Below, piece after piece: positions 3,914 through 10,861 of a stretch of 10,861 bases of DNA (its first letter is position 1; every line of letters starts with the position of its first letter). Source of the DNA: a virus (taxonomy: Duplodnaviria; Heunggongvirae; Uroviricota; Caudoviricetes); the IMG/VR virus record IMGVR_UViG_2713896896_000006, positions 1-10,861 of that record. One strand, written 5' to 3'. Made by a program: the position numbers and the translations under genes. Below the pieces are notes generated by a model. That model ran no database searches and was not told the DNA's origin. It saw only the letters and a list, made by a program, of their open reading frames with translations.

Positions 3914-4074
3914 GGTACATTTCTTACCTGTTTTTATGTTCTGGTGTCGTTTTGTAGTCTTTTCAATGAGTTGTGATTTTTTGTGTTTCCTCTCTTTACT
4001 TGATAATGAGTTAGTTTATCGCTTGTTATCGACTTGAAAGGACTACATGACGGACTAAAAAATGAGGGCGATAG

Positions 4075-5313
4075 ATGCCGGTAAAGCCATTAACCGTGAC
4101 TGAAGTTAAGGGAATGAAACCACGTGAAAAGGACTATGCCGTTTATGATGGATTCGGTTTATTGCTGAATGTGAGTAAAGCTGGTGGGAAAGTGTGGCGT
4201 TTCCGTTATAGCCATCCGATAACGAAGAAACGGCAGACATACACGATAGGGCGTTTTCCTGAATTCTCACTCGCGGAAGCACGGGAAATACGTGATGAAC
4301 TTCGGCGAATGATTGCACGTGGAGTTGATCCAGTGACAGAGAAGAAAAATCGTAAAATTGAGATGTCACTAAAAAATCTACAAACATTTGAAGCTGTTGC
4401 TAATGCATGGATCGCTTTTAAAAAGGGATCGGAATTGCGGAAACCTACGCTGTATAATATCGAATATGAAGTATACAAATATCTTGTTCCTTTCTTTGGT
4501 AAGTACAGCATAGAGAAAATTACAGCGCCAGTAGCTATTAATGCTCTGGATGCCGTATCCGATAAGAATGCGTTGCAAAAAAAATTAATATCAAGATTAA
4601 ATGAAATTATGAATTACGCTGTAAATTGTGGAGCATTGAAAACGAATCCATTACTTAAGATAAAAACTGCATTCACAGGAAAGAAAAATAAATCATTAGC
4701 TGCACTACCTATTGAAAGATTGCCTGAATTTCTGAGCTGGTGGGATAGTGTGCCTCATAAGTATCAAATAGCTCACAATGCACTTTTATTCCAGATATTG
4801 ACAATGGTCAGGCCAGGTGAGGCGATTAAAGCAGAGTGGTCCGAGATTGATTTTGATTCTGGCTTGTGGATTATCCCCGCGCATAAAATGAAATGCCATC
4901 GTGAACATGTTGTGCCTCTCTCATCACAGGCTATTAGAATCCTAAGAACAATGCAGAAAATAAAAAGAGGGCGTTATATATTTTTTTCCTCCAGAACAAA
5001 AGATGCTCCTATGGGAAAGAATACTATCAATACCCCAATTGCTGCCAGCAAGTTCAAAGGGATTGTAACGTTACACGGTTTTCGTTCGATGTGGAGTACG
5101 CTTTTAAATGAGGAGGGTTTTAACCCTGATGTTATTGAGGCTGCATTAGCACATAAAAGTGGTGATAAAATAAGAGATATTTATAATAGAACTACTTATT
5201 TAGAACAACGCAAAATTATGATGCAATGGGTAGGAGATTTTTTTGATGAGGCGAGAAAAGGGGTAATTAATAGATCCGGTGGTAAGAAAGGTTTGAGAAT
5301 AGTAAATGGTTGA
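4075..5313 (+). CDS. int: Tyrosine recombinase, P4-type integrase
   Basis: N-terminal arm-binding-like domain (KDYAVYDGFGLLLNVSKAGGKVWRFRY...TIGRFPEFSLAEAR) and C-terminal catalytic region (HGFRSMWST...H..R..YNRTTY); GAGGG Shine-Dalgarno. Confidence 0.9.
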   Translation: MPVKPLTVTEVKGMKPREKDYAVYDGFGLLLNVSKAGGKVWRFRYSHPITKKRQTYTIGRFPEFSLAEAREIRDELRRMIARGVDPVTEKKNRKIEMSLKNLQTFEAVANAWIAFKKGSELRKPTLYNIEYEVYKYLVPFFGKYSIEKITAPVAINALDAVSDKNALQKKLISRLNEIMNYAVNCGALKTNPLLKIKTAFTGKKNKSLAALPIERLPEFLSWWDSVPHKYQIAHNALLFQILTMVRPGEAIKAEWSEIDFDSGLWIIPAHKMKCHREHVVPLSSQAIRILRTMQKIKRGRYIFFSSRTKDAPMGKNTINTPIAASKFKGIVTLHGFRSMWSTLLNEEGFNPDVIEAALAHKSGDKIRDIYNRTTYLEQRKIMMQWVGDFFDEARKGVINRSGGKKGLRIVNG

Positions 5314-5325
5314 GGAGTTCAGCAA

Positions 5326-5529
5326 ATGAATACCAATGAAGATATTTTATTTACTAAAGACGTAATGAAAATTTTGCGCTATGGGGCAATGAGCGCATTC
5401 ATCAATTTCTGGAAAGATGAAAATAATGGTTTTCCTCAACCGTTCAGAATTGGGCGGCGGCATACCTGGCACCGTAGAGATGTAGAGGCATGGTTAGATA
5501 AACAACGAGAACAGGCCAATCCCCACTAA
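5326..5529 (+). CDS. alpA: AlpA-family DNA-binding regulator/excisionase-like protein
   Basis: 67 aa, directly downstream of int; AlpA-like HTH with a ...HRRDVEAWLDKQ tail; GAGGAG Shine-Dalgarno. Confidence 0.7.
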   Translation: MNTNEDILFTKDVMKILRYGAMSAFINFWKDENNGFPQPFRIGRRHTWHRRDVEAWLDKQREQANPH

Positions 5530-5543
5530 TAATATCTTTCATA

Positions 5544-5568
5544 CCCCGCACGCAATGCGGGGTTTTTT
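5544..5568 (+). terminator. Intrinsic terminator after alpA
   Basis: CCCCGCA / CGCAA / TGCGGGG followed by TTTTTT. Confidence 0.8.
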
Positions 5569-5587
5569 GTATGTGAGGTAAAAAACG

Positions 5588-6169
5588 ATGAATAAAAATA
5601 TTGCCGTGACGGGCAAGGGGTACGCTCGTTCAGTAAAAAAATTCTGCGATATTCGTGATCTTGTCGTTCTGCGCTTTGATGGCGTGGATGTTCGTGTGGT
5701 GTATCTGAACGGCGATCCGTGGTTTGTTGCAAAGGATGTTTGTGAAGCTCTGGAAATAAGCAACTCACGCGATGCTCTAAAAGCTCTGGATGTGGATGAG
5801 AAGAATACCGTCGCTTTAAGCTACGGTATTCGCGGAAATCCAAATCATAGCGTCGTTTCTGAATCTGGTTTTTACAAGCTGATCGCCAGAAGTCGCAAAG
5901 CTGTTACTCCTGGCACGTTCGCCCATCGTTTCAGTAACTGGGTATTCAGGAATGTGATACCAGGTATCAGAAAAACGGGGGCTTATGGTATCCCGTGGGG
6001 TGCATTACAGGATTTTTCCCGCCGTAAAGAGCAATATCAAATAAGTGCCAGCGAGAAGGGGAGGGAGCTACAGGCATGTAAGCGCAAAAAGCGTGAGCTG
6101 GAGGAAGAAGAAAAAAGGCTGATACGTGAATATCAGCCTGAGTTTTACTTTGGTGAGCGTATTCAGTAA
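5588..6169 (+). CDS. Bro-N domain protein (antirepressor-like)
   Basis: N-terminal Bro-N signature (FDGVDVRVVYLNGDPWFVAKDVCEALEI...VVSESGFYKLIARSRKA) with a charged, coiled-coil-like C-terminus; GAGGT Shine-Dalgarno. Confidence 0.7.
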   Translation: MNKNIAVTGKGYARSVKKFCDIRDLVVLRFDGVDVRVVYLNGDPWFVAKDVCEALEISNSRDALKALDVDEKNTVALSYGIRGNPNHSVVSESGFYKLIARSRKAVTPGTFAHRFSNWVFRNVIPGIRKTGAYGIPWGALQDFSRRKEQYQISASEKGRELQACKRKKRELEEEEKRLIREYQPEFYFGERIQ

Positions 6170-6344
6170 CCACGCGCATTGCTGATTATACGATACATCG
6201 TGTTAACCGGGAAGCTCCCCACCAGCAAGGCAAAATCTTCTGCTAAAAAATGACATATGAGCAGCCGTCCTGAAAGCATGAAGTTTTGCAGGAATAGATG
6301 CTGCAGTTCTTTATTTTATCAATTGGACTTTAGATAAAAGTAAA

Positions 6345-6380
6345 GGCGACCGAGGTGGTCGCCAGTTTTATTTTTATATT
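6345..6380. terminator. Bidirectional intrinsic terminator between the convergent Bro-N and membrane-protein genes
   Basis: GGCGACC / GAGGT / GGTCGCC flanked by an A-rich run upstream and a T-rich run downstream. Confidence 0.7.
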
Positions 6381-9759: not shown

Positions 9760-9952
9760 AAAGTGGGTAGTAAAAGTGGGGAGTATGGGGAATTTAACAA
9801 AATTGAAACGCGATTCCCCACTTTCTCACCTGTATATACCCCAAAAAGTGGGGAATAAAAAACACATTGAAAAACATCATGTTAGAATCACAAAAAAAAG
9901 AAGTGGGGAGACGTTGGGTAATTTCAAAAAGTGGGTAGTAAAAGTGGGGAGC
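9759..9952 (+). repeat. Iteron-type replication origin
   Basis: At least seven copies of AAGTGGG(G/T)A (9761, 9774, 9846, 9901, 9929, 9942; inverted at 9815-9823); a perfect 25-bp direct repeat at 9759-9783 and 9927-9951; A-rich spacer at 9855-9900. Confidence 0.7.
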
Positions 9953-9960
9953 TGTGAGGA

Positions 9961-10212
9961 ATGACCAGAAAAACCAGAGATAAGACAGCGCCAAAATATA
10001 AAGCGTTAGACATGACAGAGCACGCCTTAAAGGTGGCAATCAGAACGATAGACCGCCATACCGGGGAAGGATACGCGAAAGCACACCCCGAACTGATAAG
10101 CGCATTCATGGCAACGGCGGCAGCAAACTTTGCCACGCTGACAGAACGGGAGATTGCCGAAGCGGAACAGGTGACAACCATCAACGTTAAAACCGGAGAG
10201 CAGACAGCATGA
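9961..10212 (+). CDS. Hypothetical protein (83 aa)
   Basis: ATG directly after the iterons; stop overlaps the ssb start (ATGA). No family recognised. Confidence 0.5.
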   Translation: MTRKTRDKTAPKYKALDMTEHALKVAIRTIDRHTGEGYAKAHPELISAFMATAAANFATLTEREIAEAEQVTTINVKTGEQTA

Positions 10213-10631
10213 CAGCACAGATAGCGGCTTACGGGCGGCTGGTGGCTGACCCACAGTTAAAGACCACCAGCAAGGGCACACAAATGGCTATGGCGAGCAT
10301 GGCGGTCCTCCTGCCGTGCAGCCAGGCAGATGACGGAACGGCGACGATGTGGTTATCCGTCCTGGCGTTTGGCAGACAGGCCGACGCACTGGCAAAACAC
10401 CACAAAGGCGAACTGGTGAGCGTGGCGGGTAACATGCAGGTGAGCCAGTGGACAGGCCAGAACGGCGAAACGCGGCAGGGCTGGCAGGTTATCGCAGACA
10501 GTGTAATCAGTGCCAGAACGGCGCGACCGGGCGGCAAAAAAGGTCAACAGGGCCAGGCTACTGACGCACTGAACAGGGCAAAACAACAGGCGGGGAATGA
10601 TGATCCGTACGGGGATAACATACCGTTTTAA
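10209..10631 (+). CDS. ssb: Single-stranded DNA-binding protein (SSB-like OB fold)
   Basis: N-terminal OB-fold pattern (YGRLVADPQLKTT..G...A..S.AV, W.SV.AFG..A, KG..V.V.G......W....G); Gly/Gln-rich linker; C-terminal DDPYGDNIPF resembling the SSB DDDIPF tip. Confidence 0.7.
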   Translation: MTAQIAAYGRLVADPQLKTTSKGTQMAMASMAVLLPCSQADDGTATMWLSVLAFGRQADALAKHHKGELVSVAGNMQVSQWTGQNGETRQGWQVIADSVISARTARPGGKKGQQGQATDALNRAKQQAGNDDPYGDNIPF

Positions 10632-10645
10632 GCAACGAGTAACAG

Positions 10646-10669
10646 AAGCCGGAGCAATCCGGCTTTTTT
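10646..10669 (+). terminator. Intrinsic terminator after ssb
   Basis: AAGCCGGA / GCAA / TCCGGCTT followed by TTTTT. Confidence 0.75.
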
Positions 10670-10671
10670 AT

Positions 10672-10743
10672 GGGTCCTTCCGGTGTAGTGACCTGCCACG
10701 GGGCGGGAGCGTCGCGGAAAAAGGCTGGTTTTTGCATTTTCAT
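10672..10743 (+). other. Lambda-like cos site, copy 2 (GGGTCCT at 10672-10678; predicted cosN 12-mer at 10701-10712)
   Basis: About 72-bp imperfect direct repeat of 2209-2280 with an identical GGGCGGGAGCGTCGCGGAAAAAGGCT core; flanks differ and the downstream ACCACT elements of copy 1 are absent. Confidence 0.65.
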
Positions 10744-10861
10744 GGCGGCGGCAGCATGTGTGATAATTTATTGATAATTAAAAGTTATTTCTGTTTTCAC
10801 CTGTACAATATTTTTTTCTCCCTGTCATTAGACCAGTTTGCAATTAATTGAAATATATAAA

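What the first reader, a model, noticed from the sequence alone, without database searches (positions are those of the whole stretch)
3914..10861. PICI/P4-like satellite architecture with an RHH master-repressor candidate and possible cos-dependent hijacking
The gene order (P4-type int, alpA, divergent regulator, operon ending in a RepA-type replicase, iteron origin immediately 3' of rep, SSB, cos) matches phage-inducible chromosomal island logic. The combination of an AlpA-marked island with a lambda-type cos and an adjacent Nu1-like small terminase suggests a cos-packaged satellite of lambdoid helpers that I cannot place in a named family.
Basis: inference. Interest (0 to 1): 0.7.

Follow-up and report, generated by a model that had tools for sequence, protein, structure and literature searches.

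The report
Phage satellite embedded in helper terminase gene
The region is the left two-thirds of a 10.7-kb phage satellite (a PICI) sitting inside the large-terminase gene of a lambdoid prophage; this layout was first described in 2023, but here it uses a different integrase lineage and a target site not in that study.

Summary
It is a Gram-negative PICI-type satellite, not P4-like, not a cfPICI and not a prophage module.

The "adjacent Nu1-like terminase" is the helper's TerS.

The source contig shows a 10,669-bp island. It continues beyond the window with a protease-scaffold-capsid fusion, a second cos and its own TerS. Joining the flanks in a related locus (L001) restores an intact 700-aa TerL.

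This is the helper-embedded PICI layout of Tommasini et al. 2023. However, the integrase is only 25% identical to theirs, their att motif is absent, and I found no gpA-type site in the supplementary text I could search.

All 12 sampled relatives of this integrase (44-76% identity) also sit in phage late genes. By contrast, 72 of 80 more distant relatives sit next to tRNA or tmRNA genes.

Verdict: a new variant of a known kind. Mobility and mechanism are inferred, not tested.

The parts
2209..2280 (+). cos of the host (helper) prophage; predicted cosN 12-mer GGGCGGGAGCGT at 2238-2249
   Evidence: Aligns with lambda cosQ/cosN: ACG|GGGCGG..|CGCGG. It is 90% identical to the island cos. The region is 96-97% identical to phage mEp460.
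2424..2918 (+). Helper small terminase (DUF1441 type); not part of the island
   Evidence: Pfam DUF1441 E=2.7e-41; phrog_141 'terminase small subunit' E=7e-74.
2918..3913 (+). Helper large terminase (gpA family), N-terminal 331 codons only. It ends in a TAG supplied by the island.
   Evidence: The GpA_ATPase domain is complete (residues 41-304) and there is no nuclease domain. In L001, joining this fragment to the sequence after attR gives an intact 700-aa TerL.
3904..3910 (+). attL core CTGGATG, the only block shared by attL and attR. It lies in the TerL codons Phe-Trp-Met.
   Evidence: The same 7-mer is at attR in L004 (14365-14371), L001 and L002. The uninterrupted site TTTCTGGATGGAAGGG is in phage cdtI terL.
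4040..4057 (+). Doubled 12-bp motif GGACTAcatgacGGACTA at +133/+145 from the core; candidate integrase arm sites
   Evidence: A third GGACTA lies at -73 in attR. The positions are conserved in L001 and L004. P4 attP has comparable doubled 12-bp arm repeats.
4075..5313 (+). P4-type tyrosine integrase
   Evidence: Pfam domains. Identity is 25% (85 bits) to the 11capE integrase, 33% to P4 Int and 41% to a CP4-57-like integrase.
5326..5529 (+). AlpA-position small wHTH protein (excisionase/activator candidate); divergent
   Evidence: HTH_17 E=0.004, below cut-off; phrog_66 E=9e-7; lambda Xis E=0.78; 39% over 31 aa to the 11capE AlpA-position protein.
5543..5563 (+). Terminator-like hairpin after the int-alpA pair
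   Evidence: 8-bp stem with 6 GC pairs followed by a T run.
5588..6169 (+). Bro-N domain protein ('Bro zone')
   Evidence: Pfam Bro-N E=1.8e-18; phrog_2593 'anti-repressor' E=4e-83.
6386..6829 (-). 147-aa hydrophobic protein of unknown function in the low-GC accessory stretch, downstream of the RHH gene
   Evidence: No hit in Pfam, PHROGs, NCBIfam or PADLOC. GC is 0.38 here.
6861..7055 (-). Arc-like ribbon-helix-helix protein, divergent from the replication operon
   Evidence: Profile against PDB hits P22 Arc at E=0.0013 over residues 12-59. The AF2 model has pLDDT 79 with two helices. Foldseek top hits are Arc and other RHH proteins. phrog_228 'Arc-like repressor'.
7049..7100 (+). Rightward promoter-like site (TTGACA-18-TATGTT) bracketed by a perfect 14-nt inverted repeat, each arm holding the palindrome GTGTACAC; candidate operators
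   Evidence: Best promoter match in the island, 10 of 12. The inverted repeat arms are 7054-7067 and 7087-7100. GTGTACAC occurs only at these two places in the window.
7195..7401 (+). Icd-like small protein, first gene of the rightward operon
   Evidence: NCBIfam phage_ICD_like E=5.7e-20.
7391..8040 (+). Three small overlapping ORFs (7391-7627, 7620-7832, 7822-8040) of unknown function
   Evidence: phrog_5146, phrog_340 and phrog_2196, all of unknown function. The same genes are called in the source contig.
8048..8347 (+). DUF4222 protein, overlapping the repA start
   Evidence: Pfam DUF4222 E=1.6e-24. It is found at the same place in 11capE and in most of the sampled relatives.
8344..9759 (+). 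RepA-type replicative helicase (AAA_25)
   Evidence: Pfam AAA_25 E=4.9e-44; RefSeq name 'helicase RepA family protein' in L001 and L002.
9758..9951 (+). Iteron origin: six direct copies and one inverted copy of AAAGTGGGKA
   Evidence: Seven of the 8 window matches fall here; 1.28 are expected; 0 of 200 shuffles reach 8.
9961..10212 (+). 83-aa conserved protein preceding ssb
   Evidence: phrog_1231 E=4e-50. A protein sits at the same position in 11capE and in relatives.
10209..10631 (+). Single-stranded DNA-binding protein
   Evidence: Pfam SSB E=1.1e-15.
10672..10861 (+). Island cos1: cosQ/cosN side at 10672-10743, cosN 12-mer at 10701-10712 (identical to the helper's). The cosB side runs off the window and is of the phage-cdtI type.
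   Evidence: The genome records of phages cdtI and Tritos start exactly at window 10701 and match 10701-10861 at 95-96%. L004 cos1 is 93% identical to cdtI positions 1-204.

Best explanation
Window 3911-10861 is the left 65% of a 10,669-bp PICI-type phage satellite. It is integrated inside, and co-oriented with, the gpA-type large-terminase gene of a lambdoid (mEp460-like) prophage. This is a helper-embedded PICI.

Shown by sequence comparison:
- A P4-type integrase has recombined at the 7-bp core CTGGATG, which lies in the TerL codons Phe-Trp-Met.
- The insertion cuts TerL after its ATPase domain.
- Removing the island restores an intact terL.

Inferred life cycle:
- In the lysogen the helper cannot package DNA. 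An Arc-like RHH protein keeps the satellite's replication operon shut through two GTGTACAC operators.
- On induction, helper late transcription runs through terS and the terL stump into int and the AlpA-like gene. No terminator-like hairpin was found in between.
- The satellite then excises late and repairs terL.
- It replicates from its iteron origin using its RepA helicase and SSB.
- It is packaged by the repaired helper TerL at lambda-type cos sites. cos1 (in the window) is the cos of cdtI-type phages. cos2 (beyond the window) sits next to the satellite's own TerS.
- A satellite-encoded protease-scaffold-capsid fusion probably alters or competes in head assembly.
For: Source and boundaries:
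- The source contig L004 is identical to the window over 10,653 nt. It shows attL and attR cores 10,669 bp apart, with the terL reading frame resuming after attR.
- The reconstructed TerL in L001 is 700 aa with no internal stop.
- The uninterrupted site is present in phage cdtI terL. Intact terL is found in more than 1,000 E. coli genomes.

Site specificity:
- The integrase occurs in 90 of 5,426 complete E. coli genomes.
- 86 genomes match at least 80% of a 225-nt probe spanning the terL-island junction. All 60 listed rows extend at least 25 nt into terL and have terL annotated under the match.
- The same terL position is occupied in Salmonella, Rahnella and Klebsiella by integrases 55-76% identical.

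Family resemblance:
- The backbone matches the founding HE-PICI 11capE: int, AlpA-position gene, minus-strand small regulator, Icd-like, DUF4222, replicase, small ORF, SSB, capsid gene.
- For 11capE, late satellite excision after replication of the composite was measured experimentally (PMC10111431).

Transcription and replication signals:
- No terminator-like site lies between 2322 and 4100 on the + strand.
- RHH and operators.
- Iterons.

Packaging:
- cos evidence.
- The island TerS is 96-98% conserved among islands. It is 65-71% identical to mEp460-type helper TerS and 48-49% to cdtI-type helper TerS.
- The island capsid fusion is 56% identical to the helper's, and most of the 41 alignment gaps fall in the linker between the protease and capsid parts.
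- The int-to-SSB block is absent from all phage records.
Against: - Nothing here shows excision, replication or transfer. Everything beyond the anatomy is inference.
- For 11capE itself, no virions could be recovered (PMC10111431).
- The AlpA-like protein misses the Pfam Phage_AlpA model and has only weak HTH_17, excisionase and PHROG matches.
- The source contig ends 86 bp after attR, so I cannot tell whether the helper is complete in this genome.
- Two co-oriented cos sites only 2.5 kb apart are awkward for cos packaging, and which one is used is unknown.
- The resident helper's cosB does not match cos1.
Confidence: 0.8

Rival explanations
1. A dead-end or decaying insertion. The element once integrated into terL of a now-defective prophage and is no longer mobile. 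It simply inactivates the prophage.
For: There is no experimental evidence of mobility. Tommasini et al. note that many HE-PICI helpers look truncated and that 11capE gave no detectable virions. In this genome the helper cannot be assessed beyond attR. Several E. coli copies have truncated or IS-interrupted integrases (H121-H125; H12 and H23).
Against: All island ORFs in the source are intact and the att cores are exact. The element occurs in different helper types: mEp460-like, cdtI-like and Nu1-type. It has mosaic replication modules (RepA or primase alleles), and some genomes carry two copies. Both point to repeated recent integration.
Confidence: 0.1
2. An ordinary part of a lambdoid prophage (a replication or moron module), not a separate element.
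For: It lies physically inside a prophage and is co-oriented with the late genes.
Against: It splits terL in two and is bounded by a repeated core. Intact terL without it is found in more than 1,000 genomes. None of 50,697 phage records holds the block; only the cos region matches. It carries its own integrase, replicon, cos, TerS and capsid gene.
Confidence: 0.02
3. A P4-like satellite that exploits P2-type helpers.
For: It has a P4-type integrase (33% identical to P4 Int), doubled arm repeats as in P4 attP, and an Icd-like gene.
Against: No Sid, Psu, Delta, Epsilon or alpha-primase homologues were found. No C4/isrK-type immunity RNA was found. The cos is lambda-type and not P2-type. The island is embedded in a lambdoid prophage.
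Confidence: 0.02
4. A capsid-forming PICI (cfPICI) that builds its own heads and takes only tails from the helper.
For: It encodes a complete protease-scaffold-major capsid fusion and its own small terminase.
Against: The 10.7-kb element has no portal, no head-tail connectors and no large terminase. It must therefore use the helper's portal and TerL, which is the very gene it interrupts.
Confidence: 0.04

Closest known systems
HE-PICI Eco567.11capE and the 491 helper-embedded PICIs of Tommasini, Mageeney & Williams 2023 (PMC10111431)
   Same: - Integrated inside a late gene of a lambdoid helper prophage, in the same orientation, with no replacement sequence, so excision restores the gene.
- Same four zones: integration, Bro, replication, late.
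- Same backbone genes: minus-strand small regulator, Icd-like, DUF4222, replicase, small ORF, SSB, captured capsid gene.
- cos after ssb that resembles the helper cos.
- Size 10-11 kb.
   Different: - The integrase is only 25% identical (85 bits, against their 400-bit cut-off).
- Their attP motif TGTATTGC is absent.
- The target, gpA-type TerL between the ATPase and nuclease domains, does not appear in the supplementary text I could search. Their two terminase sites are in Terminase_1-family genes.
- This island carries its own TerS and a second cos, whereas 11capE lacks terS.
- The replicase here is a RepA helicase, not a primase.
EcCICFT073, the model Gram-negative PICI (PMC6092414, PMC6739421)
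   Same: - int-alpA at one end, own replicon, capsid homologue.
- Two functional lambda-like cos sites lacking the helper cosB.
- Lambdoid helpers and cos-type packaging.
   Different: - EcCICFT073 sits in the chromosome and interacts with its helper only in trans.
- It lacks terS; per the abstract and title of PMC6739421, E. coli PICIs redirect helper phage packaging for their own benefit.
- Here there is a full TerS homologue and the island is embedded in terL.
Satellite phage P4
   Same: Integrase family, doubled arm-type repeats in attP, and satellite lifestyle.
   Different: No sid, psu, delta or epsilon; no alpha primase; no CI-type RNA; lambda-type instead of P2-type cos.
cfPICI (bioRxiv 10.1101/2022.09.08.507074)
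   Same: Encodes its own major capsid protein, protease and small terminase.
   Different: No portal, connectors or other head genes. It still depends on the helper for the portal and large terminase.
SaPIbov5 / PmCI172 (satellites with a capsid-protein homologue; PMC5052747, PMC6092414)
   Same: SaPIbov5 is a cos-packaged satellite whose capsid-protein homologue (Ccm) makes satellite-sized capsids. PmCI172 also encodes a capsid homologue and is packaged in small capsids.
   Different: Different hosts and gene sets. Small-capsid formation is untested here.

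Membership tests
Gram-negative PICI (Fillol-Salom et al. 2018) | Discrete island of about 10-15 kb bounded by att repeats, with the integrase at one end | tested here: met
   The island is 10,669 bp between CTGGATG cores, and int is the first gene.
Gram-negative PICI (Fillol-Salom et al. 2018) | alpA homologue next to int | tested here: inconclusive
   A 67-aa gene sits at the right position. It has only weak matches: HTH_17 E=0.004 (below cut-off), phrog_66 9e-7, and 39% over 31 aa to the 11capE AlpA-position protein. There is no Phage_AlpA hit.
Gram-negative PICI (Fillol-Salom et al. 2018) | Own replication module (pri/rep) with an adjacent origin | tested here: met
   RepA-type helicase followed by a 7-copy iteron cluster, then SSB.
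Gram-negative PICI (Fillol-Salom et al. 2018) | cos site(s) with a helper-like cosN | tested here: met
   The cos1 cosN 12-mer is identical to the helper's and aligns with lambda cosN. A second cos lies beyond the window.
Gram-negative PICI (Fillol-Salom et al. 2018) | No lysis or tail genes | tested here: met
   The gene list of the whole island contains none.
Gram-negative PICI (Fillol-Salom et al. 2018) | Helper-dependent induction and high-frequency transfer | not testable with these tools
   This needs induction and transduction experiments.
Helper-embedded PICI (Tommasini et al. 2023) | [quoted passage not shown] | tested here: met
   The island is inside terL, downstream of the lysis genes, cos and terS, and upstream of the portal and head genes in L001 and L002.
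Helper-embedded PICI (Tommasini et al. 2023) | The target gene is disrupted without a replacement copy of its 3' part in attP, and precise excision restores it | tested here: met
   TerL stops at codon 331 with an island-supplied TAG. The joined flanks give an intact 700-aa TerL. The island carries no terL fragment.
Helper-embedded PICI (Tommasini et al. 2023) | Four ordered zones: integration, Bro, replication, late | tested here: met
   int + AlpA-like; Bro-N and accessory genes; Icd-like to SSB; capsid fusion and TerS.
Helper-embedded PICI (Tommasini et al. 2023) | Integrase belongs to the 11capE clade (at least 400 bits to the 11capE integrase) | tested here: not met
   85.5 bits and 25% identity. 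The other clade members compared are 19-24% identical to 11capE Int.
Helper-embedded PICI (Tommasini et al. 2023) | Doubled TGTATTGC motif about 81 bp upstream and 132 bp downstream of the attP centre | tested here: not met
   The motif is absent from the att arms; the one match, inside repA, is at chance level. A different motif, GGACTA, occupies similar positions: -73 (single copy) and +133/+145 (doubled).
Helper-embedded PICI (Tommasini et al. 2023) | One of the 14 mapped late-gene sites | tested here: not met
   No 'GpA' or 'DUF1441' string occurs in the six supplementary files held. Their terminase sites are Terminase_1:132 and :245/246. One file was truncated when stored, so this is not absolute.
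P4-like satellite | sid, psu, delta, epsilon and alpha primase; CI-type immunity RNA; P2-type cos | tested here: not met
   None were found by Pfam, PHROGs, NCBIfam or Rfam. The cos is lambda-type.
cfPICI | Complete head module (portal, protease, capsid, connectors) plus packaging genes | tested here: not met
   Only the protease-capsid fusion and TerS are present.

The most novel reading that the evidence does not exclude
This element represents a second, independently evolved integrase clade that specialises in prophage late genes. The clade is related to P4 and CP4-57 integrases and is only 19-24% identical to the published HE-PICI integrase.

- All 12 sampled members (44-76% identical to this integrase) lie co-oriented in phage packaging, head or tail genes. 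They come from Escherichia, Salmonella, Rahnella, Klebsiella, Raoultella, Enterobacter, Pantoea and Providencia.
- 72 of 80 more distant relatives (34-41% identical) sit next to tRNA or tmRNA genes.

In the terL-targeting subclade the satellite also carries two cos sites of different specificity, one of cdtI-phage type and one paired with its own TerS. This could let a single satellite exploit two helper groups while holding the helper's packaging ATPase hostage until it excises.
Probability: 0.55. Interest if true: 0.65.

Novelty: new variant of a known kind. Interest (0 to 1): 0.55.

Why it matters
Helper-embedded satellites were described once, from a single integrase clade. This raised the question of whether targeting prophage late genes is a peculiarity of that clade.

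This island suggests the habit arose again, in a separate branch of P4-type integrases whose nearest outgroups target tRNA and tmRNA genes. That would make embedding a recurrent, selectable strategy rather than a one-off.

The target is also notable. It is the gene for the packaging motor, cut between the ATPase and nuclease domains at a Phe-Trp-Met motif whose Trp and Met codons cannot vary. The helper therefore cannot package anything until the satellite leaves, and the satellite brings its own TerS to use the repaired TerL.

The element is present in about 1.7% of complete E. coli genomes, including O157:H7, O121:H19, O111 and O145 strains. It therefore affects how prophages in these strains should be annotated: a 'defective' terL may be conditionally repairable. 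It also bears on how inducible those prophages are. Standard satellite finders may miss such elements, as noted in PMC10085698.

Tried and rejected
- Rfam scan for the P4/P1-type immunity RNAs (C4, isrK) reported in some PICIs. Nothing was found. The one weak MicX hit (E=0.1, far below gathering score) covers a terminator hairpin.
- PADLOC scan of the accessory and small ORFs for defence systems: no hit.
- Scan of one genome per species (genome contigs) with the integrase. It found only distant relatives of at most 41% identity and none of the clade. These loci later served as an outgroup.
- Search for the published HE-PICI attP motif TGTATTGC: absent from the att arms.
- Comparison of the window's RHH with the YlcI/YnfO protein at the same position in L001: no detectable similarity, so this slot holds different alleles.
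- Comparison of the AlpA-like protein with P4 Vis (ORF88): no similarity.
- Looked for remnants of terL inside the island that would indicate a replacement copy. None were found; only the cos/terS and capsid regions match the prophage flanks.
- Considered that cos1 might be a chance G+C-rich match. Rejected, because two phage genome records begin exactly at the predicted cosN base.
- The literature library gave no later description of helper-embedded satellites in terL. The library lacks most subscription journals.

Full report
**1. What is in the window**

The left 3.9 kb is the late region of a lambdoid prophage.
- Endolysin at 598-1131 and Rz at 1376-1891.
- A cos region at 2209-2280.
- A DUF1441-type small terminase at 2424-2918 (phrog_141).
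- A gpA-family large terminase that starts at 2918 and stops at codon 331. Its ATPase domain is complete and its nuclease domain is missing.

From 3911 onward the sequence changes character, with GC falling from about 0.52 to 0.37-0.44.
- A P4-type integrase (4075-5313).
- A 67-aa gene at the AlpA position (5326-5529).
- A Bro-N protein (5588-6169).
- Two leftward genes: a 147-aa hydrophobic protein and a 64-aa RHH protein (6861-7055).
- A rightward operon: an Icd-like protein, three small ORFs, DUF4222 and a RepA-type AAA_25 helicase (8344-9759).
- An iteron cluster, an 83-aa ORF, SSB (10209-10631) and a cos-like sequence.

The iterons are far beyond chance: 7 of the 8 window matches lie within 191 bp directly after repA, against 1.28 expected, and 0 of 200 shuffles reach 8.

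**2. The island is inserted in the helper's terL**

An exact-protein look-up of the SSB found the source contig (GCA_053700355.1, locus L004). It is identical to the window over 10,653 nt and extends 3.6 kb further.

The heptamer CTGGATG is the only block shared by the two junctions. It lies at window 3904-3910 and at L004 14365-14371, which are 10,669 bp apart. After the second copy the terL reading frame resumes (EGPAAAYQTLSQLVYKLL...) until the contig ends.

Two complete E. coli genomes carry close relatives of the island (L001 and L002; 94-95% identical over the 77-80% of the query that aligns). In both, the same arrangement is followed by the rest of terL, then the portal, the prohead protease/capsid fusion and the tail genes.

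Joining the L001 flanks at the core gives a 700-aa TerL with no internal stop. The uninterrupted site (...TTTCTGGATGGAAGGG..., protein SFWM|EGPAAAYQ) is present in the terL of phage cdtI. The terL segment up to the site is found without the island in more than 1,000 complete E. coli genomes.

The core lies in the codons Phe-Trp-Met. It falls after the last residue matched by the GpA_ATPase model (304 of 331), that is, between the ATPase and nuclease domains.

**3. What lies beyond the window**

The rest of the island (L004 coordinates) contains:
- a 69-aa ORF;
- a 637-aa ClpP-like protease/scaffold/major-capsid fusion (NCBIfam scaf_prot_MCP1, 903 bits);
- a second cos;
- the island's own DUF1441 small terminase;
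- a 95-aa ORF (phrog_1561);
- the P arm of attP.

It has no portal, connector, tail, lysis or large-terminase gene.

The island capsid fusion in L001 is 56% identical to the helper's. Most of the 41 alignment gaps fall in the linker between the protease and capsid parts, and the island protein is 37 aa shorter (638 against 675 aa). The island TerS is 68% identical to the resident helper's TerS.

**4. The cos sites**

Window 10672-10743 is 90% identical to the prophage cos region at 2209-2280. Aligned with the joined ends of lambda, both show the lambda pattern:
- lambda: ...ACGGGTCCTTTCCGGTG...TTACG|GGGCGGCGACCT|CGCGG...
- this window...ACGGGTCCTCCCGGTG...CCACG|GGGCGGGAGCGT|CGCGG....

The predicted 12-base end is identical in the helper (2238-2249) and in island cos1 (10701-10712). 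In cos2 it differs at one base.

There is independent support. The deposited genomes of phages cdtI and Tritos begin exactly at the base equivalent to window 10701, and they match 10701-10861 at 95-96%. cos1 stays 93% identical to cdtI through position 204, which covers the whole cosB side and the first codons of the cdtI terS.

The resident helper is mEp460-like. It shares only the cosQ/cosN side with cos1.

The helper in L002 has a TerS 100% identical to that of cdtI. The island TerS alleles in L001, L002 and L004 are 96-98% identical to each other whatever the helper type.

So the satellite carries one cos of cdtI type without a TerS, and one cos next to its own TerS. Two functional cos sites lacking the helper's cosB were shown experimentally for EcCICFT073 (PMC6092414). 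Two cos sites are therefore not new in themselves.

**5. The regulator**

The 64-aa protein is a genuine ribbon-helix-helix protein.
- A profile of its 25-member family hits P22 Arc at E=0.0013 over almost its whole length.
- An AlphaFold model (pLDDT 79) shows an extended N-terminus followed by two helices.
- The best Foldseek matches are Arc and other RHH repressors.

The best promoter-like site in the island is TTGACA-18-TATGTT at 7049-7078, pointing into the replication operon. It is bracketed by a perfect 14-nt inverted repeat (7054-7067 and 7087-7100). Each arm holds the palindrome GTGTACAC, which occurs nowhere else in the window.

This fits an Arc-like repressor of the replication operon that also regulates its own gene. 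It does not justify the term 'master repressor'. In EcCICFT073 the cycle is driven by the activator AlpA, whose expression depends on the helper, and no global repressor has been identified (PMC6092414). The protein in this slot is also replaced by an unrelated one in the close relative L001.

**6. Comparison with what is known**

The configuration is that of the helper-embedded PICIs (HE-PICIs) described by Tommasini, Mageeney and Williams (PMC10111431).
- It has no replacement sequence, so the late gene works only after the satellite excises.
- It has four zones: integration, Bro, replication and late.
- For the founding element 11capE they measured excision and replication of the whole composite, followed by late excision of the satellite. 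They could not recover virions.

The 11capE gene order is almost the same as here: int, HTH, a minus-strand small regulator, Icd-like, DUF4222, replicase, small ORF, SSB, capsid.

Three features of their set are not met.
- Their elements were collected by at least 400 bits of similarity to the 11capE integrase. This integrase scores 85 bits and 25% identity.
- Their doubled TGTATTGC attP motif is absent. A different motif, GGACTA, occupies similar positions: -73, and doubled at +133/+145. P4 attP has comparable doubled 12-bp arm repeats.
- Their terminase sites are in Terminase_1-family genes. No gpA-type or DUF1441-associated site appears in their supplementary files. One of those files was truncated when stored.

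They also note that 11capE lacks terS, whereas this island has one.

It is not P4-like, not a cfPICI and not a prophage module.

**7. A second clade aimed at late genes**

A protein search found a graded series of relatives of this integrase in Enterobacterales. I looked up the genomic context of twelve of them, at 44-76% identity. In every case the integrase follows phage late genes in the same orientation, and in nearly all cases an island of the same build follows it. That build is a gene of about 70 aa at the AlpA position, usually DUF4222, and then a primase or helicase. The Rahnella and Providencia islands differ in layout after the integrase.

| Relative | Host | Position |
|---|---|---|
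| P0004 | Salmonella | truncated gpA TerL, same site |
| P0008 | Rahnella | same terL position; int lies ~1.2 kb after DUF1441 TerS (truncated terL not called) |
| P0020 | Klebsiella | truncated gpA TerL behind a true Phage_Nu1 TerS |
| P0009 | Salmonella | truncated S78 protease-capsid gene |
| P0044 | Raoultella | truncated major capsid gene |
| P0014 | E. coli | lambda-like neck/tail genes |
| P0042 | E. coli | after a head maturation protease |
| P0036 | E. coli | after a Terminase_2 TerS |
| P0060 | Pantoea | after a portal gene |
| P0051 | Enterobacter | baseplate genes |
| P0058 | Providencia | tail-tip genes |
| window (L004) | presumably E. coli | truncated gpA TerL |

Sources. The table counts the window's own integrase plus eleven relatives.

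None of the nine tested has a tRNA or tmRNA gene within 700 bp upstream. In contrast, 72 of the 80 more distant relatives found in representative genomes (34-41% identity) do.

In a neighbour-joining tree the three terL-site integrases cluster together. Most of the clade lies nearer CP4-57-like and P4 integrases (33-41% identity) than the 11capE integrase (19-24%). The Pantoea integrase (P0060) groups with the CP4-57-like sequences.

The sample is small, was chosen by me from a hit list, and the tree is crude. I therefore treat 'independent origin of late-gene targeting' as the most novel reading the data allow, not as a demonstrated result.

**8. Distribution**

The integrase gene is in 90 of 5,426 complete E. 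coli genomes, with up to two copies per genome. Carriers include O157:H7, O121:H19, O111:H8, O145:H28 and O45:H2 strains.

86 genomes match at least 80% of a 225-nt probe spanning the terL-island junction. In all 60 listed rows the match extends at least 25 nt into terL and the feature under it is a large terminase.

No complete genome matches the window at 99% or more over its whole length. The int/Bro part is closest to one group (99.8%) and the RepA part to another, which indicates a mosaic.

**9. Most likely mechanism**

Shown:
- the insertion site;
- the disruption of terL and its in-silico repair;
- the presence of an integrase, replicon, two cos sites, TerS and a capsid gene.

Inferred:
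- Helper late transcription enters int and the AlpA-like gene through the terL stump. No terminator-like hairpin lies between 2322 and 4100. The first is after the AlpA-like gene at 5543-5563.
- Late excision then repairs terL.
- RepA, the iterons and SSB replicate the circle once the RHH block is lifted.
- The repaired helper TerL cuts at the shared cosN. It is directed by the island TerS at cos2, or by a cdtI-type helper TerS at cos1.
- The island capsid fusion either builds smaller heads, as capsid homologues do in SaPIbov5 and probably PmCI172, or simply competes with the helper's.

Four island lengths (42.7 kb) equal 96% of the mEp460 genome (44.5 kb). Multimer packaging into full-size heads, as proposed for EcCICFT073, is therefore equally possible.

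**10. Verdict**

It missed that the island is embedded in the helper's terminase gene, and that the architecture has a name.

The finding is a new variant of a known kind: the HE-PICI layout with a different integrase lineage, a target site absent from the published supplementary text I could search, its own TerS, and two cos sites of different type. Interest is moderate. It would be higher if the clade-level tropism and the dual-helper packaging were confirmed.

Noticed in passing
window 6386-6829 (-): A 147-aa protein with about three hydrophobic segments lies downstream of the RHH gene in the low-GC stretch (GC about 0.38). It has no match in Pfam, PHROGs, NCBIfam or PADLOC. It may be accessory cargo of the satellite, for example an exclusion or abortive-infection function.
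   Followed up: partly
L102 6512-7178; L092 6726-7371: The same slot, between the AlpA-like gene and the replication operon, holds other cargo in relatives. The Rahnella island has a BrnT/BrnA toxin-antitoxin pair. An E. coli island has an HVO_A0114/TumE-like pair. The slot behaves like a variable hotspot.
   Followed up: no
L090 8791-9669, L095 7891-8769, L100 7384-8262, L106 6376-7254: Several islands of the more distant subclades carry a conserved 292-aa gene with a faint or weak Phage_integrase hit, upstream of DUF4222 and the primase. It may be a second recombinase-like protein of unknown role.
   Followed up: no
L004 12990-13070 (beyond the window): The second island cos has GGGCGGGAGAGT instead of GGGCGGGAGCGT at the predicted 12-base end. 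If both sites were cut, ends produced at cos1 and cos2 would not be fully complementary.
   Followed up: partly
window 3902-3910: The integration core lies in the TerL codons Phe-Trp-Met. Trp and Met have single codons, so the target is held nearly invariant at the DNA level across diverged helpers (mEp460-type, cdtI-type and Nu1-type).
   Followed up: partly
window 6332-6554: The only Rfam hit (MicX, 23 bits against a gathering score of 75, E=0.1) starts at the bidirectional terminator hairpin at 6345-6363, between the Bro-N gene and the leftward genes, and extends into the 3' end of the 147-aa gene. It is probably not an sRNA.
   Followed up: yes
window 1647-1829 within 1376-1891: An embedded +1-frame ORF inside the helper Rz gene has a lipoprotein-like start (…LVVVGCAS…) and a proline-rich tail. 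It is the expected Rz1 o-spanin of the helper lysis cassette.
   Followed up: no
L004 10848-11057 (beyond the window): A 69-aa ORF (phrog_4934) overlaps the start of the island capsid fusion. By eye its sequence pattern (…VHLDAQTVMRLKQYR…IVRHAVNTWL…) also looks ribbon-helix-helix-like. It may be a regulator of the late zone.
   Followed up: no
L005 (ENA metagenome contig ERZ27259809 k141_59411, 2,456 bp): A metagenome contig encodes the identical SSB together with the same upstream genes (repA 3' end and small ORFs). The island or a close relative is therefore also present in that sample.
   Followed up: no
E. coli genome hits H16-H22: The Bro-to-SSB part of the island recurs at about 90-94% identity in many genomes without this integrase (matches start after int). 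The same satellite body is combined with other integrases and presumably other sites.
   Followed up: no
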